From an uncultured Dehalococcoidia bacterium (lineage in GTDB: Bacteria > Chloroflexota > Dehalococcoidia > DSTF01 > RBG-16-68-14), in assembly GCA_964406605.1 (NCBI GenBank), contig CAYOSF010000001.1, positions 212,303 to 276,302 on the forward strand: a DNA stretch of 64,000 nt. The letters run 5' to 3'. Positions within the stretch are counted from its first letter, which is position 1, and each line of letters starts with the position of its first letter. This document shows, in pieces, positions 49,809 through 64,000 of this stretch. The position numbers and the translations under genes were made by a program. Below the pieces are notes generated by a model that ran no database searches, was not told the DNA's origin, and worked only from the letters and a program-made list of their open reading frames with translations.

Positions 49809-49965
49809 CGCTGCGACGGGTGATGCCGTAGGCTTCTGACGCGGCTGCCGCCGGCGTCGCCGATGGCGGACGCGCACCGCCTGTCCCGGACGTTCGCTCA
49901 CTGTTCAACTGATGGTGGGAATCGCTGCGACGCCACAGGCGCCCCGAGGATTCGCCCCCGATCCT

Positions 49966-50016
49966 TTGACGCGCCGGCCGGCCCGCGCTATAGTTATTAT
50001 GAACACTGGTTCATAA
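49966..50016 (+). promoter_or_regulatory. strong sigma70-type promoter carrying a GAAC-N4-GTTC (Cheo/LexA-type) operator at the predicted transcription start
   Basis: The promoter is TTGACG (49966-49971), a 17-nt spacer, and TATAGT (49989-49994). It is immediately followed by the perfect palindrome TTATGAAC-ACTG-GTTCATAA (49997-50016), inside a local AT-rich island. Confidence 0.45.
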
Positions 50017-50275: not shown

Positions 50276-51943
50276 ATGATGTCAGAGCCGACGGTCGATG
50301 AGGAACTCGGTGTCGCAGTCGCCCAGCCGCCCCCCTGCATAGCTACGAGCCTGCGCGACATCGGCCGGGTGCGGGCGCAGCTCGCCGACCTGCACCCGGC
50401 GCGGTTCATGCCGCTGCCATACCCCTACAACACCCCGGAGGACCAGTTCTCGATCAAGCCCTTGACCGAGAGCGCGCGGCAGAACTTGGAGTGCGACCTG
50501 GACGGCACGTGCGCCATCCAGATCCCCAGGCCGAGCAGCAGGGCGCAGGAAGAGGAGTTGGTCCGGAAGTTCATCAACGGGCTGAGGAAGCTATTCTCCG
50601 CCGACGACAACTGGACCTTCCTGGGGCCGCTGATGCTCCGGCTGGACTACTGCGCCAAGTGCCAGACGTGCGCCGACGCGTGCCCGGTCTATGTTTCGAG
50701 CGGCCGGGAGGAGATCTACCGGCCGACGTACCGGTCGGAGATCTTCCGGCGGATCGTGAAGAAGTATGTGATGCCGGGGGGATTCCTGAGCGGGCTGACG
50801 GTCGGGGACATCGACCTGAACTGGCAGACACTGGCCCGGCTGGCGGAGCTGTCATATCGCTGCACCGTCTGCCGTCGCTGCGCCAAGGTGTGCCCTCTGG
50901 GCATCGGCAACGCCATGATCACTCGTGAGATCCGGAAGGTATTCAGCCAGGAGTTGGGGATAGCACCTGACGAGCTGCACCGGCTGGGCACGGTCCAGCA
51001 ACTGGAGACCGGCTCGAGCACGGGCATGATACCGGCGGCGTTCGCGGACACGGTGGAGTTCATGGAGGAGGACGTGGAGGATCGGGCGGGGATGAAGTTC
51101 AAGTGGCCGGTGGACAAAGAGGGGGCGGATGTGCTGCTGATCCACAATGCGGGCGAGTTCCTGTCGTGGCCGGAGAACGCGGAGGCGTTCGCGATCATTT
51201 TGGAGGCGGCGGGTGTCAGCTACACGCTCTCCAGCGAGCTTCTGGGATACGATTCTGTCAACTATGGCGTCTGGTACGACGATTTCCAGTTTGCGCGCGT
51301 GGCGCTGAAACACGCGGAGGTCGCGAAGAAGCTGGGCGTGAAGAAAATCGTCATAGGAGAGTGCGGCCATGCTCACAAAGCGCTTGCCGTCGTAGCGGAC
51401 CGAGTGCTGCCGCCCGAGCTGAACATCCCACGAGAGAGCTGCTTCACGTTCCTGGAGGACATTGTCGAGAGCGGCCGCTTGAAGCTGGACCCGGAGCGGA
51501 ACAACTTCCCCGTGACCCTCCACGACCCCTGCAACATCGTGAGACTGATGGGTGTGGTGGAGCCGCAGCGGAGGATTCTGCGCAAGATCGCGCCCCAGTT
51601 CCGGGAGATGTACCCGAACCGGACGGAGAACTACTGTTGCGGCGGCGGCAGCGGGTTCGCAGTCATCCAGGGACTCAACTTCCCGGACTGGCGGTCGGCA
51701 ATCGGCGGGAGGATGAAGTTCAAGCAGGTGCTGGAGGCATTCCAGGACACCAGGATTGACGATGAGTCCGTCGCCAAGTACGTGTGCTCACCTTGCTCCA
51801 ACTGCAAGGGTCAGTTCAGAGGCATCTACGAGTACTTCGATGCGACGAACAGGTGCGGTCTCCAGTACGGCGGCCTGGTGGAGTTGATCGTCAACGCCAT
51901 GGTGGACATGCCGAAGCCGTTCATGGAGTGGCAGCAGGAGTAG
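50276..51943 (+). CDS. Fe-S oxidoreductase of the HdrD/GlcF/GlpC family (two 4Fe-4S ferredoxin motifs and two CCG domains)
   Basis: The protein contains CAKCQTCADACP, CTVCRRCAKVCP and two Cys-rich CCG-type repeats (CGHAHK, CCGGGSG, CSPCSNCKGQ). A GGAGGTGA Shine-Dalgarno precedes the ATG. Confidence 0.8.
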   Translation: MMSEPTVDEELGVAVAQPPPCIATSLRDIGRVRAQLADLHPARFMPLPYPYNTPEDQFSIKPLTESARQNLECDLDGTCAIQIPRPSSRAQEEELVRKFINGLRKLFSADDNWTFLGPLMLRLDYCAKCQTCADACPVYVSSGREEIYRPTYRSEIFRRIVKKYVMPGGFLSGLTVGDIDLNWQTLARLAELSYRCTVCRRCAKVCPLGIGNAMITREIRKVFSQELGIAPDELHRLGTVQQLETGSSTGMIPAAFADTVEFMEEDVEDRAGMKFKWPVDKEGADVLLIHNAGEFLSWPENAEAFAIILEAAGVSYTLSSELLGYDSVNYGVWYDDFQFARVALKHAEVAKKLGVKKIVIGECGHAHKALAVVADRVLPPELNIPRESCFTFLEDIVESGRLKLDPERNNFPVTLHDPCNIVRLMGVVEPQRRILRKIAPQFREMYPNRTENYCCGGGSGFAVIQGLNFPDWRSAIGGRMKFKQVLEAFQDTRIDDESVAKYVCSPCSNCKGQFRGIYEYFDATNRCGLQYGGLVELIVNAMVDMPKPFMEWQQE

Positions 51944-53745: not shown

Positions 53746-55502
53746 CCAGCGAGGCCGGTCAGCAAGCGGCCTGGAGAAGGCGTTTTCTCGCGCCGGAGAT
53801 ATCCGTGCCCTTGTGGGCGCGGGACGAGCCGGACCGCTTGCTCTACTCGTCGAACGAGAGCGGCAAATGGGAGCTCTACGCCTGGGATCACAGGACGGAT
53901 AGCCACCGGCAGGTCACTGATCGGCCTGAGGGTACCCATCTTGGACGGCTCGACCCCGCGGGCGAGCGGATCTGGTGGTTCGACGATGAAAGGGGAAGCG
54001 AGTTCGGGCGGTGGGTGGTCGAACCATTCGAGGGAGGCGAACGCCGGACCGTCGAATTGCCGGCTGCCTACGAGGCCGGGCTGGCCATCGCGAGCTCCTT
54101 TGCCGTCGTCGGCTTGTCGAATAGTGACGGCAGCACAGTTCATCTCGTTCGAGAGGGCGGGGCTCCTCGAACGCTGTACCAGCATCGGGAGGACGCCCAC
54201 GTGGTTGGGTTATCCCGGGACGAGTCGCTCCTGTGCATCAATCACTCGGAGCACGGCGATAGCCGTCATCCGGCACTGCGGATGCTGAACCTGGACGGCG
54301 AGGCCGTCGCGGAACTCTGGGACGGTCCGGGCAAAGGGCTCTGGGGCGTCCGTTGGTCGCCGGTTGCCGGCGATCAGCGGATACTGATCATGCACGAGCG
54401 GCAGGGTCTGCGTCGCCCGCTCGTATGGACACCCAGCAGCGACGAGGTGCTCGAACCCCATATAGACCTGCCCGGAGAGGTGGCGGCCGGCTGGTACCCG
54501 GACGCGTCGGCCCTGCTGCTGACTCACCGTTACCGCGGTCGAGACGAACTTTATCGCCTGGACTTGGAGAACGGCGGCACGGAGCAGCTCAGGATCGAGC
54601 CGGGTGCTGCTGCCTCTGCCAGGGTGCGACCCGACGGTGAGATCTGGTACTCGTGGTCGAGCTCCGCGGCACCGCCGGAAATGCGGGCGGGCGCCCGCGT
54701 CCTGCTCCACCCGCCGGGCGAGCCTGCGCCAGGAGGTGTTCGCTACTCCGATCATGACGTCGATGGAGTGCACTTCTTCCTGGCGGAGCCGGGGCGGCCC
54801 AGACCGCATCCGACCATCTTCGTCGTCCACGGCGGTCCCGCGGGTGTGGACTGGGACGCGTTCTCGCCGCGCAACCAGGCCTGGGTCGACCACGGCTTCG
54901 CAGTGGTGCTGGTCAACTACCGGGGGAGCGGCGGGTACGGGCAGGCATGGCGCGATGCGCTGGAGGGCAACCCCGGCCTTACGGAGCTGGAGGACATCGA
55001 CAAGGTGCACGACTGGGTCGTTGCCAATGGGATGGCCGAGCGGGAGCGGGTTGTTCTTGCCGGAGCGTCCTGGGGCGGGTACCTGACGCTGCTGGGCTTG
55101 GGCACCCAGCCCGAGCGGTGGTCGCTCGGGATCGCCGTCGTGCCGGTGGCCGACTACGTGGCGGCCTTCGAGGACGAGATGGAGCCGCTGAAGGCCTTCG
55201 ACCGGGCGCTGTTCGGCGGCTCGCCGGAAGAGATCCCGGACGTGTACAAGGAGCGGTCGCCCATCACGTACGTGGACCGCGTGCGGGTGCCGGTGCTGAT
55301 CCTCGCGGGTGAGAACGATCCCCGCTGCCCGGTCCGCCAGATCGATAACTACATCGCAAGGCTGGCGGAACTGGGCAAGCCGCACGAGGTCTATCGGTAC
55401 GAGGCCGGCCACGGTTCGCTGGTGATGGAGGAGCGGATCCGGCAGGTGGAAGTGCAGCTTTCCTTCGCCGCGCGGCATCTCGGTACGCGGCCGCCGCAAT
55501 AG
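53742..55502 (+). CDS. S9-family serine peptidase (prolyl oligopeptidase / acylaminoacyl-peptidase-like) with an N-terminal beta-propeller
   Basis: The protein contains GASWGG (G-x-S-x-G) and shows a downstream Asp and a His (EAGHGS). It overlaps the upstream gene's stop as ATGA. No signal peptide is evident. Confidence 0.85.
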   Translation: MTSEAGQQAAWRRRFLAPEISVPLWARDEPDRLLYSSNESGKWELYAWDHRTDSHRQVTDRPEGTHLGRLDPAGERIWWFDDERGSEFGRWVVEPFEGGERRTVELPAAYEAGLAIASSFAVVGLSNSDGSTVHLVREGGAPRTLYQHREDAHVVGLSRDESLLCINHSEHGDSRHPALRMLNLDGEAVAELWDGPGKGLWGVRWSPVAGDQRILIMHERQGLRRPLVWTPSSDEVLEPHIDLPGEVAAGWYPDASALLLTHRYRGRDELYRLDLENGGTEQLRIEPGAAASARVRPDGEIWYSWSSSAAPPEMRAGARVLLHPPGEPAPGGVRYSDHDVDGVHFFLAEPGRPRPHPTIFVVHGGPAGVDWDAFSPRNQAWVDHGFAVVLVNYRGSGGYGQAWRDALEGNPGLTELEDIDKVHDWVVANGMAERERVVLAGASWGGYLTLLGLGTQPERWSLGIAVVPVADYVAAFEDEMEPLKAFDRALFGGSPEEIPDVYKERSPITYVDRVRVPVLILAGENDPRCPVRQIDNYIARLAELGKPHEVYRYEAGHGSLVMEERIRQVEVQLSFAARHLGTRPPQ

Positions 55503-55510
55503 CGCGGGGT

Positions 55511-58500
55511 CTACCGGAAGCTGTGCGTGCGCTCGTGGGGCACGCGGGCGTCATCGAGCGGCAGCCGCTCCATGCGCTGCGTGACGACGTTGACCGCGCG
55601 CTCCTGCCGCTCGATGTGGCCGTGGACGATGAGGGCGCCCGCCTCGGTGACGAGCTGCTTGTAGCGCCGGACCAGGCCCGGGTTGGTGATGACGTTGATC
55701 AGCCCGTAGCGGTCTTCCAGCGTGTGGAAGACGAATCCCTTCGCGGTCTCCGGCGCTTGGCGGACGGCGACGAAACCGGCGACCGTCACCTTCGTTCCGT
55801 GTTCGAGCCGCTCGACGATGTGGCTGGGCGTGATGCCTTCGTGCAATGCGCCCGTGGCCAGGTCCGTGATGTGGCCGCGCGTGGAGACGGCGCCCTCCGT
55901 GAGGACGAGGTCCTCGCGCACCCGCTCGCCGTCGTTCATCTCCAGTAGCGTCACCATCTCGGCTTCGTAGGGGAGAGCGAGGGGAGACTGCGCGCCCAGG
56001 GGCTGGTAAAAGAGACCGAGCTGCCAGAGCAGCTCTCGCTCGTGGAGTCCGGTGAAGGCGAAGGCGCCGAGACGGATCAAGTGTTCGATCGGCTCCCGGG
56101 GGAGGCGGGTGCGATGCCAGAAGTCCCAGAGGGAGAGGTAGAGGCCCCGATCTGAGCTTGCCGAACCGTTGTGTCCCGGCGGAGTGTAGTGGGTGCTCTG
56201 GGCAGCGGGCTCCTCCGTCATTCTGAGCGCCAGCGAAGGATCCGGCCTTTGTGGAGAGGAGGCTTTCGAAGGGCTAGACCCTTCGCTTCGCTCAGGGTGA
56301 CCGAGGGTTTGATGCGCCTCCTCGTCCAATCGCTTGAGGGCCGCCTCGCCGATTCCCTTGACATAATTGAACCCGAGACGGATCGCATCATCTTTCCCCT
56401 CGGCGGGCGGGCTCTCGATGATGCATTCCGAGCGGCTGCGGTTGACGTCGACGCCCAGGATCTCGACGCCGTTGCGGCGCGCCTCGTTGACGACGACGCC
56501 GGGGCTGTAGAAGCCGAAGGGCCACTCGTTGAGCCAGGCGCAGTAGAACTCCAGTGGGTAGTAGCGCTTCACCCAGGCGAGCTTGCCGGCCGTCTCCGCC
56601 ATCGCCGCGGCGTGCGCCTTGGGGAAGCCGAACTCGGCGAAGGCGAGGATCTTGCCGAAGATGCGCTGGGCCGTCGCCTCGTCCACCAGGCCCTTCTGGC
56701 GGGCGCTCTCCAGGAACGTCTCCCGCAGCCGCTCCATCTCCTCCCGCGAGCGCTTGCGACTCATCGCGCGGCGCAGGCTCTCGGCCTGGCCCGCCGTGAA
56801 GCCGGCGACGGCCATCGCTACCTCCAGGACCTGCTCCTGGAAGACGATGACGCCTTTGGTCTCGCTCAAGATCGGCTCCAGGCACTCGTGGTCATAGGTG
56901 ACCGGCTCCGCGCCCTGGCAGCGCAGGATGTAGGGGTTGACGGCGCCGCCCTGGATGGGACCAGGCCGGATGAGGGCGACCTGGATCACCAGGTCCTCGA
57001 TGGAGCTGATCTTGAGGCGCAGGATCGCCTGGAGCTGGGCGCGGCTCTGGATCTGGACGATACCCAGGATGTCGCCGCGCTGGATCATCTCATAGACCTG
57101 CGGGTCGTCGAGGGGGACGCGCACGGGGTCGATGCGGCGGCCGTGGCGCTCCTCGATGAGCTGGAGGGAGCGGTAGAGGTGGCCCAGGCTGGGGTAGCCG
57201 AGGAAGTCCATCTTGATGAAGCCGGCGTCGGCCACGGAGTCCTTGTCCCACTGGCAGATGTAGCGGCCGTCCATAGCCGAGGGCTGGACCGGCACCTGCT
57301 CGACGATCGGGGTGCTGGAGATGATGACGCCGCCGGAGTGCTGGCTGAGGTGGCGGGGCTTGCCGCGCAACTCCTCTACCAACCGCACGAACTCGCGCCA
57401 GACCGGCGCGTGCATCCGGCTCCGGAACTCAGGCATCGCCTGCATCTCCTCGACCAGGGAGTGAGCGAAGCGACGCCGCATCCGTTTGGCCAGCTTGTCG
57501 ACGTCGGCCTCCGGCAGCCCCAGGGCTTTGCCCACGTCGCGGATCGCCATCGGGTAGCGATAGGTGATGACGTTGGCGACGAGCGCCGCCCGCTCCGTGC
57601 CGTAGGTGGCGAAGACGTGCTCGAACATCCGCTCGCGGGCGTCGCGGGCGAAGTCGAGGTCGATGTCGGGCACGTCCTCCTTCTGGCGGGCTTCATTGAG
57701 GAAGCGGCCGACGAAGAGATCGTACTTGATCGGGTCGATGCCGGAGAGTCCCAGCAGGTAGCAGACCAGAGACCCGACGGAGGAGCCCCGGCCCCGGGCC
57801 GGCAGCTCGTGTTCGTGGGCGTAGCGCATCAGCTCCCAGTTGCGCAGGAAGAAGCCGGCCTGGCCGGCCTGCCGGATCAGGTCCAGCTCGTGGCGGAGTC
57901 GATCTTTCACTTTGGGCGCGGCCCAGCCGTAGAGCTCGCGGGCGCTGGCGAGGCAGACCTCCTCGAGGAACTCGTCGGCTGTCCTGCCCGCGGGCGCTTC
58001 GAAGTCGGGAAAGCGATAGGTCAGGTCGCGGGTGAGGTCAAAGCCCTGCCCTGAGCTTGTCGAAGGGGCCTGGGGCGCGCCCTGAGCGAAGCCGAAGGGC
58101 GGCTGGTTGTTATTCTCTGGGGTGGGGTTGGCGCTGTAGGGGCCGGATTCTTCGCTTCGCTCAGAATGACAGTTGGGAACGCAGCGCTCGGCGATGACGA
58201 GGGTGTTGCTGATCGCCTCCGGCAGGTCGGCGAAGAGGGCGGTCATCTCCTGCGGCGGCTTCAGGTAGAACTCCGCGTTCTTGCGACGCAGCCGCTCCGA
58301 GGCGTCCAGCGTGGTGCGGTGGCGCACGGCCACCAGCACGTCCTGAAGTCGATGGCGGGCGCGCTCGTGGTAGTGGACGTTGTTGGTGGCGACGACGCCC
58401 AGGCCGAGATCCCGGGCCAGCGCCACGAGGCCCCGGTTGCGGGGCCGGTCGCCGTAGACCAAGTTGTCCTGGAGCTCGATCCAGAAGCCCTCCCGGCCGA

Positions 58501-59002
58501 ACAGATCCAGGTAGCGGCCGGCGGCCCGGTGCGCGCCTTCGATGTCTCCGGCGGCGACGAGGCGGGGCACCTCGCCCTGCCGACAGCCGGAGAGGGCGAT
58601 GAGCCCCTCGGTGTGTCCGGCGAGGGCTTCCGGGTCGAGGACGGGCTCGTCACGCGGGCTGGAGAGATGGGCCTGCGAGAGGAGGCGGCTCAGGTTGGCG
58701 TAGCCGCGCGGCGTCTCAGCGAGCAGAGTGAGGTGATGACTTGTAGGGGCGCACGATTGTGCGTCCCTACCTGGCGATGTGCCACCACGAAGGGTCACCT
58801 CGGCGCCGATGATCGGGCGGACGCCCCACTCCTTGGCCGCCTGGGCGAACTCCATTGCGCCGGCCAGGCCGTCGTGGTCGGTGAGCGCAAGCGCCGGGTA
58901 GCCGAGCCGGCGCGCCTCGAGCACCAGTTCGAGCGGCGTGGAGGCGCCTTCCCGGAAGGAGAAGCAGGAATGGCAGTGGAGCTCAACGTAGGATGTGTTC
59001 AT
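55511..59002 (-). CDS. dnaE2: DnaE-type DNA polymerase III alpha subunit, probably the error-prone DnaE2/ImuC type, carrying two in-frame repeat-element insertions
   Basis: The PHP domain reads MNTSYVELHCHSCFSFREGASTPLELV, followed by the pol-beta-like and finger regions and an OB-fold near the C-terminus (HTLEDRYGLINVITNP). The protein ends about 20 aa after the OB-fold with no tau-binding tail. Its native length after removing about 100 inserted residues is about 1060 aa. A catalytically dead imuB-type Y-family polymerase gene lies 2.3 kb away. The DnaE2 assignment is inference with confidence about 0.6; the DnaE-family call is solid. Confidence 0.85.
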   Translation of the reverse strand: MNTSYVELHCHSCFSFREGASTPLELVLEARRLGYPALALTDHDGLAGAMEFAQAAKEWGVRPIIGAEVTLRGGTSPGRDAQSCAPTSHHLTLLAETPRGYANLSRLLSQAHLSSPRDEPVLDPEALAGHTEGLIALSGCRQGEVPRLVAAGDIEGAHRAAGRYLDLFGREGFWIELQDNLVYGDRPRNRGLVALARDLGLGVVATNNVHYHERARHRLQDVLVAVRHRTTLDASERLRRKNAEFYLKPPQEMTALFADLPEAISNTLVIAERCVPNCHSERSEESGPYSANPTPENNNQPPFGFAQGAPQAPSTSSGQGFDLTRDLTYRFPDFEAPAGRTADEFLEEVCLASARELYGWAAPKVKDRLRHELDLIRQAGQAGFFLRNWELMRYAHEHELPARGRGSSVGSLVCYLLGLSGIDPIKYDLFVGRFLNEARQKEDVPDIDLDFARDARERMFEHVFATYGTERAALVANVITYRYPMAIRDVGKALGLPEADVDKLAKRMRRRFAHSLVEEMQAMPEFRSRMHAPVWREFVRLVEELRGKPRHLSQHSGGVIISSTPIVEQVPVQPSAMDGRYICQWDKDSVADAGFIKMDFLGYPSLGHLYRSLQLIEERHGRRIDPVRVPLDDPQVYEMIQRGDILGIVQIQSRAQLQAILRLKISSIEDLVIQVALIRPGPIQGGAVNPYILRCQGAEPVTYDHECLEPILSETKGVIVFQEQVLEVAMAVAGFTAGQAESLRRAMSRKRSREEMERLRETFLESARQKGLVDEATAQRIFGKILAFAEFGFPKAHAAAMAETAGKLAWVKRYYPLEFYCAWLNEWPFGFYSPGVVVNEARRNGVEILGVDVNRSRSECIIESPPAEGKDDAIRLGFNYVKGIGEAALKRLDEEAHQTLGHPERSEGSSPSKASSPQRPDPSLALRMTEEPAAQSTHYTPPGHNGSASSDRGLYLSLWDFWHRTRLPREPIEHLIRLGAFAFTGLHERELLWQLGLFYQPLGAQSPLALPYEAEMVTLLEMNDGERVREDLVLTEGAVSTRGHITDLATGALHEGITPSHIVERLEHGTKVTVAGFVAVRQAPETAKGFVFHTLEDRYGLINVITNPGLVRRYKQLVTEAGALIVHGHIERQERAVNVVTQRMERLPLDDARVPHERTHSFR
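56217..56301. mobile_element. MITE-like palindromic element (copy B) inserted in-frame in dnaE2
   Basis: The plus-strand sequence is GTCATTCTGAGCGCCAGCGAAGGATCCGGCC...CCCTTCGCTTCGCTCAGGGTGAC. The terminal inverted repeats are about CCCTGAGCGAAGCGAAGG. The element is read through as HPERSEGSSPSKASSPQRPDPSLALRMTEE in the polymerase. Confidence 0.6.
58045..58172. mobile_element. MITE-like palindromic element (copy A, opposite orientation to B, with a partial extra TIR copy) inserted in-frame in dnaE2
   Basis: The coding-strand sequence is GTCATTCTGAGCGAAGCGAAGAATCCGGCC...CCCTTCGGCTTCGCTCAGGG. This gives about 85% identity to copy B over the ends. It is read through as CHSERSEESGPYSANPTPENNNQPPFGFAQGAPQAPSTSSG, between the conserved AERC and FDLTRDLTYRFP segments. 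Confidence 0.6.
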
Positions 59003-59067
59003 CGGTATACAGTGATGCCGATCTGGTATATACTAATGGTGACCTTGTATTAACTGAGAGGTGCATC

Positions 59068-59343
59068 GTGGCTATCGCAACTATCTCTGCCAAGGGGTGG
59101 GTCGTCATCCCGCAGGAAATCCGCAAGCGGTACGGCCTGAAAAAGGGCGACAAGGTTCATATCATCGACTACGCCGGGCGTATCGCCATCGTCCCTGCTC
59201 TCAAGGACCCGGTCCGACAAGCACGAGGGATGCTCAGGGGTGGGCCCTCGCTGACAAAGGCGCTGCTGGAGGAGCGTCGCTGGGAGCTGGAGAAGGAAGA
59301 GCGGAAGCTCCAGCGCTGGTCGGGCGATGCCAAGGCACAGTAG
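59068..59343 (+). CDS. vapB: AbrB/MazE/SpoVT-type antitoxin (VapB-like)
   Basis: The protein contains VAIATISAKGWVVIPQEIRKRYGLKKGDKVHII (looped-hinge helix swapped-hairpin fold). It is 4 nt upstream of a PIN-domain gene. Confidence 0.7.
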   Translation: MAIATISAKGWVVIPQEIRKRYGLKKGDKVHIIDYAGRIAIVPALKDPVRQARGMLRGGPSLTKALLEERRWELEKEERKLQRWSGDAKAQ

Positions 59344-59347
59344 TCCC

Positions 59348-59767
59348 ATGCCGGTCCGATTTGTGCTGGATTCTTTCGCGGTAATGGCGCTCTTGCTGGA
59401 CGAGCAGGGAGCGGCCAGAGTCGAGGAGCTGCTAGAAGGGGCTGGCATGGGAGAGCATGAACTATACATAACGGTCGTCAATCTGGGGGAGGTTCTCTAC
59501 ACGTTCGAGAACCGACGCGATATGGAGGCCGCTCAGGAGGCGCTGGCCTTTGTTGACCAATCGCCTATCGAGATCGTAGAAGTCGATCGATCTCTGGCCC
59601 TGAACGCGGCACGGCTGAAGGCGACGACGGGGATGGGCTACGTCGACTGTTTTGTCGCGGGCTGCGCTCAGCGCCTGGATGCTGCCGTCGTCACCGGCGA
59701 CCCTGACTTCCGGCGAGTCGAGGATCTGGTGGCCATCGAGTGGTTGCCAGGGGCTGAGGAGGAGTAG
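59348..59767 (+). CDS. vapC: PIN-domain ribonuclease toxin (VapC-like)
   Basis: The protein starts MPVRFVLDSFAV (first acidic residue) and contains ...GEVLYTFE..., VDCFVAGCAQRLDAAVVTGDPDF, in the pattern of conserved PIN acidic residues. Confidence 0.75.
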   Translation: MPVRFVLDSFAVMALLLDEQGAARVEELLEGAGMGEHELYITVVNLGEVLYTFENRRDMEAAQEALAFVDQSPIEIVEVDRSLALNAARLKATTGMGYVDCFVAGCAQRLDAAVVTGDPDFRRVEDLVAIEWLPGAEEE

Positions 59768-59924
59768 TGGCTCTCGCAGGAGACCCAGCGGTGTCGAGGC
59801 GTTCTGCCAGAGGGAGAAGCAGCGGCAGTGAAGTTGGCCGTAGGTCACGGATCAATGATAGCGAACACATGTTCTATCCGCAACCCCGACGGGACGGCAT
59901 TGCAGTAGGGGATACCGCTCAGCC

Positions 59925-60605
59925 ATGGCCCGCCTCCGGACGCTGAGGGAAGCCTTTCTGGCCGGTCTCTTCGTGGTGTTCCTGGCCGGCACCCTGTTCG
60001 GCTCGGCCGGCCGCGTCGACTGGCCGATGGCGTGGGCCTACCTCGCCGTCTACCTGGCGTTCACCGTGGGCGCCTTCTTCGTCCTCGACCCGGAGCTGAT
60101 CCGGGAGCGCGGTAGGGCGGAGAGCGGGATCGAGCGAAGGGACGCGGCGCTGGCGAGCTTCGCCTTCATCTGGCTGTATCCGTTGCCGCTCATCGTCGCG
60201 GGGCTGGACACTGGTCGCTACGGCTGGTCGCCGGACATTCCGTTGGCGGCGCAGGCGGCGGCTCTGGCGATCTTCGCGCTCGCGCTCGGCTTCGCGTTCT
60301 GGGCGATGATGGTCAACCGGTTCTTCTCGACGTTCGTCAGGATCCAGAGCGAGCGCGGGCACCACGTCGTGACCGGCGGGCCCTACGCGTACGTCCGTCA
60401 CCCGGGCTACAGCGGCACCATCCTGTCGACGGTTGTGCTGCCCATCGCGCTTGGGTCCTTGTGGGCGCTCATCCCCGCGTGCATCGGGGGGTTCCTGTTC
60501 GCCGTTCGCACGCAGCTCGAGGACAGGACGCTACAGGAGGAACTGACCGGGTATCGCGAGTACGCGGCGAACGTCCGCTGGCGTCTGCTTCCCGGCGTGT
60601 GGTGA
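59925..60605 (+). CDS. isoprenylcysteine carboxyl methyltransferase (ICMT/PEMT) family membrane methyltransferase
   Basis: Multiple TM segments are followed by the C-terminal VVTGGPYAYVRHPGYSG...FLFAVRTQLED...EE SAM-binding signature. Confidence 0.75.
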   Translation: MARLRTLREAFLAGLFVVFLAGTLFGSAGRVDWPMAWAYLAVYLAFTVGAFFVLDPELIRERGRAESGIERRDAALASFAFIWLYPLPLIVAGLDTGRYGWSPDIPLAAQAAALAIFALALGFAFWAMMVNRFFSTFVRIQSERGHHVVTGGPYAYVRHPGYSGTILSTVVLPIALGSLWALIPACIGGFLFAVRTQLEDRTLQEELTGYREYAANVRWRLLPGVW

Positions 60606-60658
60606 CGGGCGGGGTACGTTGGCGGTGTCCCGGTGACGGAGTCTCCGCTTCCAGGTAG

Positions 60659-61042
60659 CTACGGCTTCGGCGGCGGCTCGTAGGAGAAGATCGTCTTCAC
60701 CGGCGGCAGCAAGAACGGTGGCGCGGTGGCCGAGACGTAGATGAGCGGCTCGTCGCCGGGGTTGTAGATGGCGTGGTCGGTCTTGGGCGGGACGAAGACC
60801 ATCGTGCCCGGCCCGACCTCCTCTTGCTCCTCTGCGACTTTCATCAGCCCGCGACCGCGGACGATGACGTAGACCTGCTCGTTGTCTGGGTGGGCGTGCA
60901 TGGCTTGCTCGCTGCCGGGCTCTCCCTCCACCCAGGTGATGGACATATTGGACGATCCGAACTGGCCCTTGGTCAGCAGGAGGTACGAGACCTGACCGCC
61001 GCGATGGTTGCGCGGGCTTTCTTCGATGGTCTGCGTGTGCAT
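60659..61042 (-). CDS. cupin-domain protein
   Basis: The protein contains HAHPDNEQVYVIVRGRG...GTMVFVPPKTDHAIYNPG (cupin motifs 1 and 2). The start is taken at the internal Met MHTQTIEE. Confidence 0.7.
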   Translation of the reverse strand: MHTQTIEESPRNHRGGQVSYLLLTKGQFGSSNMSITWVEGEPGSEQAMHAHPDNEQVYVIVRGRGLMKVAEEQEEVGPGTMVFVPPKTDHAIYNPGDEPLIYVSATAPPFLLPPVKTIFSYEPPPKP

Positions 61043-61119
61043 CTGGGTTCCTCCGTCCCCATTGGCGTCCTTCGTTGCTGAGGGCGAGTGTAGCACGGGC
61101 GGGTGGGGGAGCTAGGGAC

Positions 61120-61410
61120 TCACCCATACCGCTGCTCCCACCACGATCCCTTGATCTCGTCTCGGAACGCGGTCACCACGCGACCGTCCTCCAGCAGCAG
61201 CTCGTAGTAGGTGCGGGAGACGGGCTCCGCCGTCCACCAGCGGTCGTCCGTCCGGTAGCGGTCCAGCACCTCGTCCACCCCTAGCCAGCGACCGTTGCGC
61301 AGGAGCGCGCTCGGGGCGCCGTCGACGCCCGCGCGCACCTCGACCTGCCGGGGAGCGTTCAGGCGTCGTAGGGTAGGAGGGCGTTCCGCTCCTCCGGGTG
61401 TCGGGACCAC
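61120..61410 (-). CDS. small Trp-rich ORF overlapping the imuB 3' end by 52 nt; probably the detached C-terminal domain of ImuB (frameshift or split gene)
   Basis: The 96-aa ORF lies in a different frame and ends in ...RWWTAEPVSRTYYELLLEDGRVVTAFRDEIKGSWWEQRYG. The ImuB-like ORF is about 100-130 aa shorter than typical ImuB proteins. A GTG start is also possible just after the imuB stop. Confidence 0.4.
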   Translation of the reverse strand: MVPTPGGAERPPTLRRLNAPRQVEVRAGVDGAPSALLRNGRWLGVDEVLDRYRTDDRWWTAEPVSRTYYELLLEDGRVVTAFRDEIKGSWWEQRYG

Positions 61411-62531
61411 GGGTCCACCTCCTCGATGCGCCAGATCATCGGCCGGCCGTAGCGGGCGCGGAGCTGCCGGATGGCCTCGGCGATCTGGTTGAGGTTCTGC
61501 TTCGTGTCGTTGAAGAGCTTGGCCTGCTTCGCCACCTCCCGGCCGATACCGGTCAGGGTGACGGTGACGGTATCGACGGCCTGGGGCAGCTCCAGCAGCG
61601 CCAGGCGGGTCTTGAGCACGAGTGTCATGAGGCGCTCGTCCCCGGTGGGCTCCCGGAACGTCTCGAACCGCTCCCAGACGATGCGCTCCTCGGCCAGGAG
61701 CTGGACGTGCATGCGGCGCGCCGTGCGCCCTCGCAGGCGGCGGACCAGGCGCGCCAGGAGCTGCCGGCCGGCCATCGTCAGCGCCTCCGTCGTCGCCACG
61801 GGAGCATCGAAGCTCAGCCGGTCGCTGAGCGCCTGCTGGCGCTTGCGGGGGTGGAGCGGCTCCTCATCGATGCCGCTGGCCAGCTCCCAGAGGCGCTTGC
61901 CGGCGCGGCGGAACTGCGCCTCGACGGACGGCTGGGGCAGGGCGGCGACGTCGCCCAGCGTGCGTAGGGCGAGCAGATCGAGTCGTTGTATGACATCCAG
62001 ATCGAAGGGGAGGAGGGAGACGTCCTTGTCCTGAAGGAACTCCTGCTCGTGGCCTTTCGGGACGACGCCGGCATCGCCCGGAGGGGTGATGGACGCGGCG
62101 GCCCAGGCGACGAACTTCCCTTCCGCGATGCCGGTGCCGGCGAGCAGGCCCGTCGCCCGGCGGGCCGCTTCGACCAAGTCTCCGGCCAGGACGAACTCGT
62201 CCTCGTAGTGGCCCTGGAGCCCTTGTATGTCGGCGTAGGCGCAGCCGAGCCCGGCGGGCTCGACCTGAGGAGCGACGTCCTCCAGACCGTCCAGCATCGC
62301 CTCGAACGCGGCGCGGTAGAGGGCGTGGTCGGCATCGATGAAGGCGGCGTGTGGGCAGAGGGCCTTCGCCTGCCGGAGCGGCAGCCCTTCGCAGACTCCC
62401 GCGGCGTCGGGCGACGCGTCGAGGACGGTGTGCCGGTCGTAGACGATGACCGGTCCGCCCGTGGTGGACGGGTCTCGCAGCGATTCCACCACGACGGCGA
62501 AGGAGGGGATGAGGACGCAGGCGATACGCAC
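61359..62531 (-). CDS. imuB: catalytically inactive Y-family polymerase, ImuB-like
   Basis: It has the Y-family fold. The N-terminal MRIACVLIPSFAVVVE replaces the DinB catalytic D-x-D (VDMDCFFAAVE). LGCAYADI replaces the S-(L/I)-D-E-A-Y-L-D acidic pair. A GTG start has a GGGAG Shine-Dalgarno. Confidence 0.75.
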   Translation of the reverse strand: MRIACVLIPSFAVVVESLRDPSTTGGPVIVYDRHTVLDASPDAAGVCEGLPLRQAKALCPHAAFIDADHALYRAAFEAMLDGLEDVAPQVEPAGLGCAYADIQGLQGHYEDEFVLAGDLVEAARRATGLLAGTGIAEGKFVAWAAASITPPGDAGVVPKGHEQEFLQDKDVSLLPFDLDVIQRLDLLALRTLGDVAALPQPSVEAQFRRAGKRLWELASGIDEEPLHPRKRQQALSDRLSFDAPVATTEALTMAGRQLLARLVRRLRGRTARRMHVQLLAEERIVWERFETFREPTGDERLMTLVLKTRLALLELPQAVDTVTVTLTGIGREVAKQAKLFNDTKQNLNQIAEAIRQLRARYGRPMIWRIEEVDPWSRHPEERNALLPYDA

Positions 62532-62569
62532 GGACGCTCCCTGGTACGCTCACAGAGGTGGCAAGGACG

Positions 62570-62598
62570 ATTATATCAGAACGAATGTTCCATAGCAA
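62570..62598 (-). promoter_or_regulatory. sigma70-type promoter with an embedded LexA-type Cheo box upstream of imuB
   Basis: On the minus strand the sequence is TTGCTA, then TGGAACATTCGTTCTGA (17 nt), then TATAAT. The spacer contains the palindrome GAAC-ATTC-GTTC (plus strand AGAACGAATGTTCC, 62578-62591). This matches CGAACRNRYGTTYC in 12 of 14 positions. Confidence 0.6.
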
Positions 62599-62611
62599 GA
62601 AGGACAGGGAA

Positions 62612-62637
62612 CTGACGCCGGCCCGCCCCGGCGTCAG
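62612..62637 (-). terminator. GC-rich hairpin; probable terminator of the upstream substrate-binding-protein gene
   Basis: The sequence CTGACGCCGG-cccgcc-CCGGCGTCAG has a perfect 10-bp stem. On the minus strand it is followed by UUCCCUGUCCUUCUUGCU. Confidence 0.45.
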
Positions 62638-62639
62638 CG

Positions 62640-62760
62640 TGCCTCAGGCGCCGGAGCGGCCGCGCGAAGCCCCTCCCTCACCCCGGCCTTCGGCCACCCC
62701 TCTCCCTCGTCCACGAGGGAGAGGGGCGAGGGTGAAGGGGTACCCGAAGCGACTTGGCGG
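62640..62760. repeat. structured palindromic (MITE/REP-like) element in the intergenic region
   Basis: Nested inverted repeats are present: CCCCTCTCCCT-cgtccacg-AGGGAGAGGGG, and outer arms CCCTCCCTCACCCC / GGGTGAAGGGG. Its translation gives a spurious Pro/Arg-rich ORF (62558-62791). Confidence 0.4.
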
Positions 62761-62787
62761 TTGGCTCCCAACCAAGCTGGGACAGCG

Positions 62788-64000
62788 CTAGCCGCCGATC
62801 CGCTCGTTGTAGTCGGCGATGGCTCTGTTTGACTCCTCCTCGGCCTGGCGCAACGCGTCCTCCGGAGATTGGCCCTGCAGGAGCATGCGCTCGATGGCCG
62901 TCGTGATCGCCTCCCGCACCTCGGCGTAAGGGCCCATAACGGGGCCGGCGCTGGCCACATTGGTGACACCCGACAGCAACTGGTCGTAGGCCACCTTGAA
63001 CTGGGGCCGCTCCGCCCAGAGTTCCGTCACCGGGGGCAGCTCAATCGCGGACTTCCGGATCGGAAGGTAGCCGGTCCCCGCGTGCCAGGTGGCCTGCTGC
63101 TCAGGCTCGTCCAGCCACTGGGCAAAGACGCGGGCGGCCTCCTGCTTCTCGGGGGACGAGTGGTTGGAGATCCAGAGAGAAGCGCCTCCAACGAGCACGC
63201 CACCCTCACCCTCGATGCCGGGCATCGGCGCCACACCGACTTCGACGTCGGGGAACTGGCCGCTCTCGAGCACCTGGTAGACCGAACCGAGGGCCGCCGA
63301 CGAGCCGATGGTCATGGCGGCGTCCCCGGCGGCGATGGCCAGGAGGTGGTCGGCACCGGAGGGGTTCCGGCCCACGTTCAGAGCGAGGCCGTCATCCACC
63401 ATGTCCTTGAGCCAGGTGAAGATCTCCAAGCCCAGGTCGTTGTTGAAGAGGACTTCGGTCGCGCGCGCATCCCGGCCGTTACCGTTGTTCACGTAGGGTT
63501 CGCCGGCCTTGGCGAACCACTGCTCCATGTACCAGGCGGACAACTCCATGGCCATGCCGTGATTGGCCGCACCCGAGTCCACAATGGCCTGCGAAGCCTC
63601 GCGCAGGTCCTCGAACGTGCGGGGCGGGTCCTCGGGGTCGAGGCCGGCCTTGGTGAACGCGGTCTTGTTGTAGTACAGCACCGGGTTCGAGACGTTGAAC
63701 GGCATCGGCCATAGGGTGCCCTCCACCGTGTAGAAGGCGATGACCCGGTCCAAGAAGTCCGACGTGTCGTAGCCCTCCGCATCGATACAGGCCTGGGCCG
63801 GGACGGCGCTGCCGCTATCGATCATGATGCGATTGGCGGTGTCCTCCAGTTGGGCGATGTCCGGCAGGGCGCCGCCTCGGAGGGCGGTGATGTACTTGTC
63901 CAGCGCCTCGCTGTAACTGCCCTGGAAGATGGCGTTAACGCGCACCTTGTCTTGGGAGTCGTTGAAATCGCTCACCATGCGCTGCAGCGTCTCCTCGCTG
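62788..64000 (-). CDS. ABC-transporter extracellular solute-binding protein (family 1, sugar/glycerol-phosphate type); the N-terminus lies beyond the window end
   Basis: The ORF is 396 aa or more with SBP_bac_1-like sequence (…VDSGAANHGMAMELSAWYMEQWF…). The reading frame continues to position 64000 without a start codon. Confidence 0.8.
   Translation of the reverse strand, partial: SEETLQRMVSDFNDSQDKVRVNAIFQGSYSEALDKYITALRGGALPDIAQLEDTANRIMIDSGSAVPAQACIDAEGYDTSDFLDRVIAFYTVEGTLWPMPFNVSNPVLYYNKTAFTKAGLDPEDPPRTFEDLREASQAIVDSGAANHGMAMELSAWYMEQWFAKAGEPYVNNGNGRDARATEVLFNNDLGLEIFTWLKDMVDDGLALNVGRNPSGADHLLAIAAGDAAMTIGSSAALGSVYQVLESGQFPDVEVGVAPMPGIEGEGGVLVGGASLWISNHSSPEKQEAARVFAQWLDEPEQQATWHAGTGYLPIRKSAIELPPVTELWAERPQFKVAYDQLLSGVTNVASAGPVMGPYAEVREAITTAIERMLLQGQSPEDALRQAEEESNRAIADYNERIGG

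What the first reader, a model, noticed from the sequence alone, without database searches (positions are those of the whole stretch)
62570..62598. Canonical promoter with an embedded GAAC-N4-GTTC LexA-type box driving the dead Y-family polymerase (imuB-like)
On the minus strand the sequence is TTGCTA, a 17-nt spacer and a perfect TATAAT -10. The palindrome GAACATTCGTTC lies inside the spacer, about 40 nt upstream of the imuB GTG and GGGAG Shine-Dalgarno. This is the architecture expected for an SOS-repressed mutasome gene. It suggests that the Gram-positive/Chloroflexi-type LexA motif (CGAACRNRYGTTYC) operates in this organism.
Basis: partly seen in the sequence, partly recalled or inferred. 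Interest (0 to 1): 0.7.

Follow-up and report, generated by a model that had tools for sequence, protein, structure and literature searches.

The report
SOS-repressed promoter of translesion polymerase operon
The flagged sequence is a real, evolutionarily conserved promoter with a LexA-type repressor site inside it; it switches on an error-prone DNA-repair polymerase operon after DNA damage in an uncultured Chloroflexota bacterium, and this is an expected arrangement, not a new one.

Summary
On the minus strand, TTGCTA (62598-62593), a 17-nt spacer and TATAAT (62575-62570, preceded by TG) enclose GAACATTCGTTC (62590-62579). This lies 39-59 nt upstream of the GTG of a 390-aa, catalytically dead Y-family polymerase gene.

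- In 21 distinct relatives' loci from Chloroflexota/Dehalococcoidia metagenome genomes (ImuB 55-92% identical), only the -35 TTG, a GnAC-N4-GTTC dyad and the start codon stay conserved in otherwise unalignable upstream DNA.
- A weight matrix built only from those orthologous sites picks out two sites in the 64-kb window. One is this box (20.2 bits). The other is a second box at 59863-59874 (18.6 bits).
- The same matrix scores 20-33 bits on the promoters of eight lexA genes of Chloroflexota (class Anaerolineae), which have the same layout.

Two refinements apply. The gene is the "split ImuB" variant: inactive polymerase, a separate 96-aa ImuB-C-like protein, and DnaE2, with no ImuA in the window or the related loci. 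No lexA or recA from this organism itself could be retrieved, so LexA binding is inferred.

It is a new member of a known kind and of low interest. The only modest surprise is the second boxed promoter, which faces dnaE2 across an antisense vapBC cassette.

The parts
62593..62598 (-). -35 hexamer TTGCTA of the imuB-like operon promoter
   Evidence: The TTG is conserved in the 19-sequence alignment (T43 is invariant); most orthologues have TTGACA.
62579..62590 (.). LexA-type operator (SOS box 1), GAACATTCGTTC, inside the 17-nt promoter spacer
   Evidence: Weight-matrix score 20.2 bits, top of the window. GnAC-N4-GTTC sits at the same place in all orthologous promoters, and the GTTC half is invariant.
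62570..62578 (-). Extended -10 element TGaTATAAT (TATAAT = 62575-62570)
62537..62541 (-). Shine-Dalgarno GGGAG, 5 nt before the GTG start at 62531
   Evidence: Orthologues start with ATG or GTG at the same aligned column.
62611..62638 (-). Hairpin with an 11-bp G+C-rich stem followed by a moderately T-rich run (UUCCCUGUCCUUCUU), just upstream of the -35. It is probably the terminator of the upstream solute-binding-protein gene and would insulate the promoter.
   Evidence: fold, z = -3.5 for the intergenic region.
61359..62531 (-). Inactive Y-family polymerase (iPolY, 'imuB-like'), 390 aa. It has a QAKLF clamp-motif-like sequence, a RecA-N-terminus-like motif and a conserved SRHPEER tail.
61120..61410 (-). 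96-aa Trp-rich protein, candidate standalone ImuB-C. Its ORF as listed (from the first in-frame start codon) overlaps the iPolY 3' end by 52 nt.
   Evidence: Syntenic in every related locus that extends past the end of imuB. 5 of 21 orthologues hit Pfam DUF6504, best E = 1.2e-5. The window copy alone scores only E = 0.028.
60659..61096 (-). Cupin-domain protein, 24 nt after the 96-aa ORF on the same strand; probably the third gene of the box-1 operon in this genome
   Evidence: In relative L150 the orthologous cupin gene has its own boxed promoter.
59925..60605 (+). ICMT/PEMT-family membrane methyltransferase, convergent with the cupin gene and divergent from the box-2 promoter
   Evidence: A 62%-identical orthologue sits next to the homologous promoter in L150.
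59855..59883 (-). Second SOS-type promoter: TTGCGG (59883-59878), 17-nt spacer containing GAACATGTGTTC (box 2, 59863-59874), then TATCAT (59860-59855). It points towards vapC/vapB (antisense) and dnaE2.
   Evidence: Weight-matrix score 18.6 bits, second best in the window. It is homologous to the L150 promoter TTGATA-ata-GAACATTAGTTC-ccc-TATAAT that drives cupin. No terminator-like site on the minus strand between it and dnaE2.
59068..59767 (+). vapB (AbrB/MazE-type antitoxin, 59068-59343) and vapC (PIN toxin, 59327-59767), on the opposite strand between the box-2 promoter and dnaE2
   Evidence: Orthologous vapBC sits at the same place in L007, L008, L010 and L011.
55511..59002 (-). dnaE2 (error-prone DNA polymerase III alpha homologue), 1163 aa, with two in-frame repeat-element inserts
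   Evidence: NCBIfam NF004225 'error-prone DNA polymerase' 946.6 bits against a cut-off of 939. Directly follows the 96-aa gene in L002, L005, L012-L016, L143 and L147.

Best explanation
The site is a sigma-70-type promoter whose 17-nt spacer is filled by a LexA operator of the Gram-positive/Chloroflexi type (GAAC-N4-GTTC).

Proposed mechanism: in undamaged cells a LexA dimer sits between the -35 and -10 hexamers and blocks RNA polymerase. After DNA damage, RecA-stimulated LexA self-cleavage frees the promoter. A short-leader mRNA (predicted start near 62563) is then made that encodes the inactive Y-family polymerase, the 96-aa ImuB-C-like protein and, in this genome, a cupin protein.

The catalytic partner dnaE2 was originally the third gene of this operon. 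Here it is cut off by inserted genes (cupin, ICMT, vapBC). It is most likely served by a second, homologous LexA-boxed promoter at 59855-59883 that reads through the antisense strand of vapBC.

Shown: the sequence elements, their conservation, their statistical distinctness, the inactive active site, the gene order, and the presence of the same promoter-operator design at lexA genes of the phylum.

Inferred: that LexA of this organism binds the boxes, the transcription start sites, damage induction, and read-through from box 2 into dnaE2.
For: Sequence and chance:
- Exact sequence and coordinates.
- The weight matrix from 16 orthologous sites ranks box 1 (20.2 bits) and box 2 (18.6 bits) far above everything else in the window (next 10.0; null maximum 16.1).

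Conservation:
- In the alignment of 19 orthologous upstream regions, invariant columns are confined to the TTG of the -35, G.A of the left half-site, GTTC of the right half-site and the start codon. Mean column identity is 39%.
- Further relatives L150, L151 and L152 show the same.

Other boxed promoters in the same clade:
- dnaE2 when it is detached from imuB: L003, and internal promoters in L001 and L006.
- An Rv2578c/PA0069-type radical-SAM 'splB' gene, a documented SOS gene class (PMC4951493).
- The cupin gene in L150.

Link to lexA:
- A metagenome scan for TTGACA-N2-4-GAAC-N4-GTTCTAT returned 120 loci, of which 102 have at least 300 nt downstream of the site. Across the 120, the gene immediately downstream is a LexA homologue in 21, a Y-family polymerase in 7, RecA-like in 2 and DnaE2 in 1.
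- Eight lexA loci related to proteins named 'LexA [Anaerolineae bacterium]' all carry TTGACA-N3-4-box-N2-3-TAtaAT plus a second box, scoring 20-33 bits with the imuB-derived matrix.

Literature: the GAAC-N4-GTTC LexA motif, its Chloroflexi variant and the core SOS regulon (PMC4951493); the iPolY/ImuB-C/DnaE2 cassette (PMC6511836, PMC12926913).
Against: - No lexA or recA gene of this organism or of its own Dehalococcoidia-type clade was seen. There is none in the window or in the related imuB loci L001-L017 that were searched (tblastn). The lexA evidence comes from a sister class.
- The left half-site is degenerate (GTAC, GCAC or GAAT) in 6 of the 16 genome-collection loci L001-L016.
- The invariant right half GTTCTA overlaps the -10 region, so part of its conservation could be due to the promoter alone.
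- The window's box departs from the 14-nt Cheo consensus at 3 flanking or spacer positions.
- No transcript or binding data exist.
- For box 2, the weight matrix slightly prefers the opposite orientation (18.6 against 16.4 bits). Loci that carry vapBC but lack the cupin/ICMT insertion have no second box. Its role for dnaE2 is therefore an inference.
Confidence: 0.85

Rival explanations
1. The palindrome is the operator of a different, non-LexA repressor (for example an XRE- or TetR-type regulator dedicated to the cassette) that happens to share the GAAC/GTTC dyad.
For: No LexA of this clade was recovered. The left half-site varies. A third perfect GAAC-N4-GTTC at 50001 lies in a different, larger palindrome next to a metabolic gene and does not fit the matrix. 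So not every such dyad need be a LexA site.
Against: The same dyad, spacing and promoter position occur at lexA genes themselves in the phylum. They are also strongly enriched upstream of lexA, Y-family, RecA-like and DnaE2 genes in metagenomes. The in-clade set of boxed genes (dnaE2, splB-type radical SAM) is an SOS set (PMC4951493). No regulator gene travels with the cassette.
Confidence: 0.07
2. The conserved bases are only promoter features (-35, spacer shape, extended -10). The promoter is constitutive and the dyad has no repressor.
For: The invariant GTTCTA abuts or overlaps the -10 element, and TTG is the -35. Promoter elements alone would give some footprint.
Against: Promoter spacers are normally not sequence-conserved. 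Here a dyad with fixed 4-nt spacing persists although its distance to each hexamer shifts by 1-2 nt between loci. The same dyad recurs as a second copy downstream of the -10 at lexA genes, where it cannot be a promoter element.
Confidence: 0.05
3. Chance co-occurrence of a promoter-like string and a 4+4 palindrome in an intergenic region.
For: GAAC-N4-GTTC is short. 0.73 copies are expected per window, and 3 of 100 shuffles reach the observed 3.
Against: It is conserved at the orthologous position in all relatives examined, and its matrix score lies beyond every simulated window.
Confidence: 0.01

Closest known systems
LexA-regulated imuA-imuB-dnaE2 (imuA'-imuB / dnaE2) mutagenesis cassette of Proteobacteria and Actinobacteria (Erill et al. 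2006 and Warner et al. 2010, as cited in PMC3919608, PMC4951493 and PMC6511836)
   Same: A damage-inducible operon pairs a catalytically dead Y-family polymerase with DnaE2. A LexA box lies in the promoter. The cassette can be contiguous or split, and the split parts can each keep a box.
   Different: No imuA/imuA' gene is next to the cassette. The polymerase homologue is 390 aa and lacks the fused ImuB-C domain, which is a separate 96-aa gene. In this genome vapBC, cupin and ICMT genes are wedged into the cassette.
Inactive PolY + standalone ImuB-C + DnaE2 (DnaE2X) putative mutasome, Kyrpidia tusciae type (Timinskas & Venclovas 2019, PMC6511836; PMC12926913)
   Same: Same three-gene composition and order. 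Inactive active site. A RecA-N-terminus-like motif near the C-terminus of the polymerase homologue. No imuA.
   Different: Those papers report that such operons often include lexA; here lexA is not linked. Chloroflexota are not mentioned in either text. Identity of the 96-aa protein with ImuB-C rests on synteny and weak DUF6504 matches only.
Gram-positive SOS box (Cheo box, CGAACRNRYGTTYC) of Bacillus and Mycobacterium, and the Dehalococcoides ethenogenes LexA site (Fernandez de Henestrosa et al. 2002, cited in PMC4951493)
   Same: GAAC-N4-GTTC dyad overlapping core promoter elements of DNA-damage genes. The phylum Chloroflexi is already reported to use this motif type.
   Different: The clade consensus here is (T/A)AGAAC-N4-GTTCTA, with a tolerant left arm (GAAC, GTAC or GCAC). 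The box is almost always placed inside the -35/-10 spacer. Binding has not been tested for this lineage.

Membership tests
LexA operator, Gram-positive/Chloroflexi type (GAAC-N4-GTTC) | Inverted repeat GAAC-N4-GTTC | tested here: met
   GAACATTCGTTC at 62590-62579. It matches 11 of 14 positions of CGAACRNRYGTTYC, including all 8 core bases.
LexA operator, Gram-positive/Chloroflexi type (GAAC-N4-GTTC) | Overlaps core promoter elements of a DNA-damage-response gene | tested here: met
   It lies within the 17-nt spacer of TTGCTA/TATAAT, upstream of the iPolY/ImuB-C operon.
LexA operator, Gram-positive/Chloroflexi type (GAAC-N4-GTTC) | Conserved at orthologous promoters (phylogenetic footprint) | tested here: met
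   All 19 aligned upstream regions plus L150-L152 carry it. The right arm is invariant. The left arm is GAAC in most of them and GTAC, GCAC or GAAT in 6.
LexA operator, Gram-positive/Chloroflexi type (GAAC-N4-GTTC) | Same motif upstream of lexA and/or recA in the same genome | not testable with these tools
   There is no lexA or recA in the window or in the imuB loci L001-L017. At phylum level it is met: 8 of 8 lexA loci of the Anaerolineae-type lexA family score 20-33 bits.
LexA operator, Gram-positive/Chloroflexi type (GAAC-N4-GTTC) | LexA binding and DNA-damage induction | not testable with these tools
   Requires a gel-shift or footprint assay and RNA data.
Sigma-70-type promoter | -35 and -10 hexamers at 16-18 nt spacing, at a suitable distance from the start codon | tested here: met
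   10 of 12 matches, 17-nt spacer, TG extension, -10 element 39 nt before the GTG. The transcription start is not tested.
Canonical ImuA-ImuB-DnaE2 cassette | imuA (RecA-like) gene in the cassette | tested here: not met
   No RecA-like ORF in the window or next to imuB in L001-L017. None is annotated in L143, L146, L147 or L150.
Canonical ImuA-ImuB-DnaE2 cassette | ImuB = inactive Y-family core fused to the ImuB-C domain (about 480-530 aa) | tested here: not met
   The protein is 390 aa in the window and about 386-402 aa in nearly all full-length homologues. The C-terminal module is a separate ORF.
Canonical ImuA-ImuB-DnaE2 cassette | Loss of catalytic carboxylates in the Y-family core | tested here: met
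   L7 (by extension of the alignment), P9, G96 and C97 occupy the positions of D, D, D and E in the alignment to Pol IV 7yll. G96 is invariant.
Inactive PolY + ImuB-C + DnaE2X variant (PMC6511836, PMC12926913) | Standalone ImuB-C gene between the polymerase homologue and dnaE2 | tested here: inconclusive
   A conserved 96-aa Trp-rich ORF sits in that position in every related locus that extends that far. 5 of 21 orthologues match Pfam DUF6504, best 1.2e-5; the window copy scores 0.028, below the cut-off. That DUF6504 equals ImuB-C was not verified here. The single-sequence structure model was unusable (pLDDT 44.7).
Inactive PolY + ImuB-C + DnaE2X variant (PMC6511836, PMC12926913) | RecA-N-terminus-like motif at the C-terminus of the polymerase homologue | tested here: inconclusive
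   IAEAIRQLRARYGRPMIWRIEE aligns with RecA residues 11-32, [22 protein letters not shown], and is conserved in the family. No significance test was made.
Inactive PolY + ImuB-C + DnaE2X variant (PMC6511836, PMC12926913) | DnaE2-type polymerase in the operon | tested here: met
   NF004225 'error-prone DNA polymerase' 946.6 bits against a cut-off of 939. It is contiguous with the 96-aa gene in 9 related loci. Assignment to the DnaE2X subgroup was not tested.

The most novel reading that the evidence does not exclude
The second LexA-boxed promoter (59855-59883) has been separated from the cupin gene it drives in relative L150. It now fires a damage-induced transcript that runs antisense through the whole vapBC toxin-antitoxin operon before reaching dnaE2. 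SOS induction would then switch on the mutagenic polymerase and, at the same time, interfere with vapBC expression. That would be a direct regulatory coupling between the SOS response and a toxin-antitoxin module, created by gene insertions into an ancestral mutasome operon.
Probability: 0.25. Interest if true: 0.5.

Novelty: new member of a known kind. Interest (0 to 1): 0.25.

Why it matters
It adds a well-supported SOS operator and promoter design for an uncultured, soil- or sediment-type Dehalococcoidia lineage of Chloroflexota.

It shows that the ImuA-less "split ImuB" mutasome (inactive PolY, ImuB-C, DnaE2) is under LexA-type control there. This fits the view that translesion synthesis is the ancient core of the SOS regulon.

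It also yields a usable weight matrix (consensus about TAGAAC-N4-GTTCTA inside TTGACA/TATAAT) for annotating SOS regulons in Chloroflexota metagenome genomes.

None of this overturns current knowledge.

Tried and rejected
(1) lexA/recA of the organism's own clade. tblastn with E. coli and B. subtilis LexA and E. coli RecA found none in the window or L001-L017. Two LexA protein searches returned only Anaerolineae-type LexA, and none came from the same assemblies as the imuB loci. Cluster look-ups gave no organism names.

(2) Frameshifted-ImuB idea. The 52-nt overlap between the 390-aa ORF and the 96-aa ORF first suggested a frameshifted ImuB. I rejected this because nearly all full-length homologues listed are about 386-402 aa. 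In L004 the 96-aa gene starts after the stop codon.

(3) Third GAAC-N4-GTTC at 50001. It scores below 8 bits with the clade matrix and belongs to a different 20-bp palindrome next to a metabolic gene. I did not count it as an SOS box.

(4) A plus-strand promoter for the ICMT gene around box 2. There is no TTG-containing -35 at the right distance. The minus-strand reading (TTGCGG-17-TATCAT) matches the clade geometry and the homologous L150 promoter. It is kept only as a minor alternative, because ICMT-like genes follow a LexA-like gene in L094 and L136.

(5) An own promoter for dnaE2 in the vapB-dnaE2 gap. The only shared motif (TAGTATA) reads as the vapB -10 on the other strand.

(6) Structure prediction of the 96-aa protein. 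pLDDT was 44.7, so no fold search was run.

(7) Canonical ImuB with a fused C-domain to test DUF6504 = ImuB-C. None was among the fetched loci.

(8) Erill 2006 (PMC1326238) and Fernandez de Henestrosa 2002 (PMC135389) are not held in the paper library. They are cited only through PMC4951493 and PMC3919608.

(9) The Rfam scan of the window found only two tRNAs.

Full report
1. WHAT IS IN THE SEQUENCE

On the minus strand the window reads cTTGCTAtgGAACATTCGTTCtgaTATAATcgtccttgccacctctgtgagcgtaccaGGGAGcgtccGTG.
- TTGCTA is at 62598-62593.
- The spacer is 17 nt.
- TATAAT is at 62575-62570 and is preceded by TG at 62578-62577, giving an extended -10.
- The dyad GAACATTCGTTC is at 62590-62579.
- GGGAG is at 62541-62537.
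- The GTG of a 390-aa ORF (61359-62531) is at 62531.

The consensus scan lists this as the strongest promoter-like site in 55000-64000: 10 of 12 matches, with 3 sites found against 0.6 expected.

GAAC-N4-GTTC occurs three times in the window, at 50001, 59863 and 62579, against 0.73 expected.

Directly upstream of the -35 lie a long hairpin and an 11-bp G+C-rich hairpin (62611-62638). The second is followed by a moderately T-rich run and looks like the terminator of the upstream solute-binding-protein gene. The promoter therefore stands alone.

2. WHAT THE GENES ARE

The 390-aa product matches Pfam IMS (5.8e-19) and, below cut-off, many DNA polymerase IV models. In the alignment to Pol IV structure 7yll, P9, G96 and C97 occupy three of the catalytic carboxylate positions, and L7 a fourth by extension of the alignment. 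G96 is invariant in 25 homologues. It is a dead Y-family polymerase.

Its C-terminus carries three conserved features:
- a QAKLF sequence;
- a stretch (IAEAIRQLRARYGRPMIWR) that aligns to the RecA N-terminus;
- a conserved SRHPEER tail.

Nearly all full-length homologues listed are about 386-402 aa, so the short length is a family trait and not a frameshift.

A 96-aa Trp-rich ORF (61120-61410) overlaps its end. It is present in every related locus that extends past the end of imuB. Five of 21 orthologues hit Pfam DUF6504, best 1.2e-5; the window copy alone gives E = 0.028.

The 1163-aa ORF at 55511-59002 is DnaE2 (NF004225, 946.6 bits against a cut-off of 939).

In nine related loci the three genes are contiguous. 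This is the "inactive PolY + standalone ImuB-C + DnaE2" variant that lacks ImuA, described by Timinskas and Venclovas (PMC6511836; "DnaE2X" systems in PMC12926913). It is not the canonical imuA-imuB-dnaE2 cassette. No RecA-like gene is in the window or next to imuB in L001-L017.

3. WHO IT IS

The closest database proteins and the 17 genome loci come from metagenome-assembled genomes labelled Dehalococcoidia bacterium or Chloroflexota bacterium. ImuB identity is 55-73% for these loci, and up to 92% in metagenome contigs. An independent assembly (Logan SRR14802572) reproduces the window's gene order exactly.

4. IS THE BOX FUNCTIONAL? COMPARATIVE EVIDENCE

Upstream of imuB, 16 genome loci carry TTGACA, 2-4 nt, G[A/T/C]A[C/T]-N4-GTTCTA, then a -10-like TATnnn. 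A 19-sequence alignment has 39% mean column identity. Its invariant columns are confined to the -35 TTG, G.A of the left arm, GTTC of the right arm, and the start codon. Closer relatives (L143, L147, L150-L152) show the same.

I built a 20-nt weight matrix from the 16 sites, leaving the window out, and scanned the window:

| Site | Score (bits) |
|---|---|
| Box 1, 62575-62594 | 20.2 |
| Box 2, 59859-59878 | 18.6 |
| Next best hit in the window | 10.0 |
| Highest in 30 simulated windows | 16.1 |

Within the clade the same promoter-operator module also precedes other genes:
- dnaE2 when it is detached from imuB (L003), and a second part of a split dnaE2 (L001, L006);
- an Rv2578c/PA0069-type radical-SAM gene (L009, L011), the "splB" class that PMC4951493 lists as a recurrent LexA target;
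- a capsid-like operon (L008, L010);
- the cupin gene of L150.

5. LINK TO LexA

A scan of metagenome contigs for TTGACA-N2-4-GAAC-N4-GTTCTAT stopped at its 120-locus limit. Of these, 102 loci have at least 300 nt downstream of the site. Across the 120 loci, the gene immediately downstream is:

| Downstream gene | Loci |
|---|---|
| LexA homologue | 21 |
| Y-family polymerase | 7 |
| RecA-like | 2 |
| DnaE2 | 1 |

Three of the Y-family loci carry the same iPolY/96-aa/DnaE2 cassette (L019, L048, L063). This is a very strong enrichment for a pattern derived only from imuB promoters.

A classic 207-aa LexA from one high-GC locus (L025) was used to collect relatives. Those carrying a source name are "transcriptional repressor LexA [Anaerolineae bacterium]". 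All eight lexA loci fetched (L025, L138, L141, L142, L148, L149, L153, L154) have TTGACA-N3-4-box-N2-3-TAtaAT followed by a second box about 20 nt downstream. They score 20-33 bits with the imuB-derived matrix. In five of the eight the first box runs GTTCtggTATAAT, which closely matches the window's GTTCtgaTATAAT.

PMC4951493 states three relevant points. GAAC-N4-GTTC is the LexA motif of Firmicutes and Actinobacteria. Variants occur in Chloroflexi, citing the Dehalococcoides ethenogenes study. And lexA, recA and the imuB-dnaE2 cassette form the core SOS regulon.

What I could not do is fetch lexA or recA from this organism or its own class. All capped searches that could reach them are spent.

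6. MECHANISM

A LexA dimer bound in the spacer would occlude both hexamers. Relief by RecA-stimulated autocleavage would give a transcript starting near 62563 with a leader of about 31 nt. The steps from "box present and conserved" to "LexA binds and represses" are inferred from family knowledge and the phylum-level lexA promoters. They are not shown for this organism.

7. THE SECOND BOX AND THE BROKEN OPERON

In this genome, as in L007, L008, L010 and L011, a vapBC pair lies on the opposite strand between the 96-aa gene and dnaE2. The window additionally has a cupin gene 24 nt after the 96-aa gene on the same strand, and a convergent ICMT-family gene. dnaE2 is therefore about 2.1 kb and two opposing transcription units away from box 1.

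Box 2 sits between the ICMT start and the vapC stop. Read on the minus strand it is TTGCGG-ata-GAACATGTGTTC-gc-TATCAT. This has the same geometry as the clade's imuB promoters.

In L150 (ImuB 76% identical) the orthologous ICMT gene (62% identical) is followed by TTGATA-ata-GAACATTAGTTC-ccc-TATAAT, which drives the orthologous cupin gene (85% identical). The two promoter modules align over about 60 nt, and both point away from ICMT. Box 2 is therefore a real, inherited SOS-type promoter. In the window it no longer faces cupin; it faces the antisense strand of vapC/vapB and then dnaE2.

The scan found no terminator-like site on that strand in between. I consider read-through into dnaE2 the most likely role, with probability roughly 0.5-0.6. 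It is unproven, for two reasons:
- loci that carry vapBC but not the cupin/ICMT insertion have no second box;
- ICMT-like genes follow a 195-aa LexA-like gene in two unrelated metagenome loci, so control of ICMT cannot be excluded.

8. COMPARISON AND NOVELTY

It works like the textbook SOS-repressed mutasome promoter. It passes the testable membership criteria for a Gram-positive/Chloroflexi-type LexA operator and for a sigma-70 promoter. It fails two defining features of the canonical ImuA-ImuB-DnaE2 cassette (no imuA, no fused ImuB-C). It fits the published ImuA-less variant, with the ImuB-C assignment still inconclusive.

Everything is of a known kind. The specific lineage, the clade consensus (about TAGAAC-N4-GTTCTA with a tolerant left arm) and the rearranged second promoter are new instances.

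Interest is low (0.25). A specialist would expect exactly this, and no open question becomes newly testable, apart from the possible SOS-antisense-vapBC coupling.

Noticed in passing
window 49962-50016: A strong promoter-like TTGACG-17-TATAGT is followed at the predicted start site by a perfect 20-bp palindrome, TTATGAAC-ACTG-GTTCATAA. It lies about 260 nt upstream of an Fe-S/CCG-domain oxidoreductase gene (50276-51943). It contains GAAC-N4-GTTC but scores below 8 bits with the clade SOS matrix, so it is probably the operator of another regulator.
   Followed up: partly
window 58031-58171 and 56129-56302 (inside dnaE2): Two in-frame inserts in DnaE2 are made of a short palindromic repeat element (GTCATTCTGAGCGAAGCGAAGAATC type, translated as CHSERSEES / GHPERSEGS ... 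DPSLALRMT). Orthologues without them are about 1040-1070 aa. L008, L010 and L017 carry other inserts, with a duplicated about 70-nt element in L010 at 12758 and 12995.
   Followed up: partly
L001 10140-15688; L006 7624-11991: dnaE2 is split into an N-terminal PHP part and the remainder, separated by 1.2-1.5 kb. A second LexA-boxed TTGACA promoter sits immediately before the second part (L001 12655, L006 9730; 31-33 bits).
   Followed up: no
L008 3386-4975; L010 5968: A LexA-boxed promoter precedes a coiled-coil protein and an HK97/gp7-type major capsid protein (NF045672, 1.5e-48) a few kb upstream of imuB. This may be a damage-inducible prophage remnant or an encapsulin-like system.
   Followed up: partly
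L138, L141, L142, L148, L149, L153, L154: The Anaerolineae-type lexA gene is consistently followed by an FtsK/SpoIIIE-family ATPase and small proteins, one with a faint DUF6504 match. L149 and L154 have two tandem lexA genes.
   Followed up: no
L026, L054, L067, L075, L082, L084, L094 and others: A distinct 195-aa LexA-like family starts only 11 nt after the TTGACA-box-TATA module, so it has a near-leaderless transcript. It is often followed by an active-looking DinB gene. In L094 and L136 an ICMT-like membrane methyltransferase lies downstream.
   Followed up: partly
L033, L040, L070, L080, L097, L117, L130, L131 and others: At least ten of the 120 pattern loci have a 130-140-aa protein with a C-terminal LuxR-type helix-turn-helix directly after the LexA-boxed promoter. 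This gene class is not usually listed in SOS regulons.
   Followed up: no
window 59068-59767; L007, L008, L010, L011: The gap between the ImuB-C-like gene and dnaE2 holds an orthologous vapBC pair, always on the opposite strand, in the window and four related loci. L008 also has a 36-aa fragment of the ImuB-C-like gene between vapB and dnaE2.
   Followed up: partly
L143 12527-13210: An SRAP (SOS-response-associated peptidase) gene lies tail-to-tail with dnaE2. No box of at least 11 bits was found near it.
   Followed up: partly
window 62697-62745: The long perfect hairpin CCCCTCTCCCTCGTGGACGAGGGAGAGGGG, flanked by GGGGTGAGGGAGGGG, lies in the intergenic region. It resembles the repeated G/C-rich palindromic elements common in this kind of genome. 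No second copy is present in the window.
   Followed up: partly
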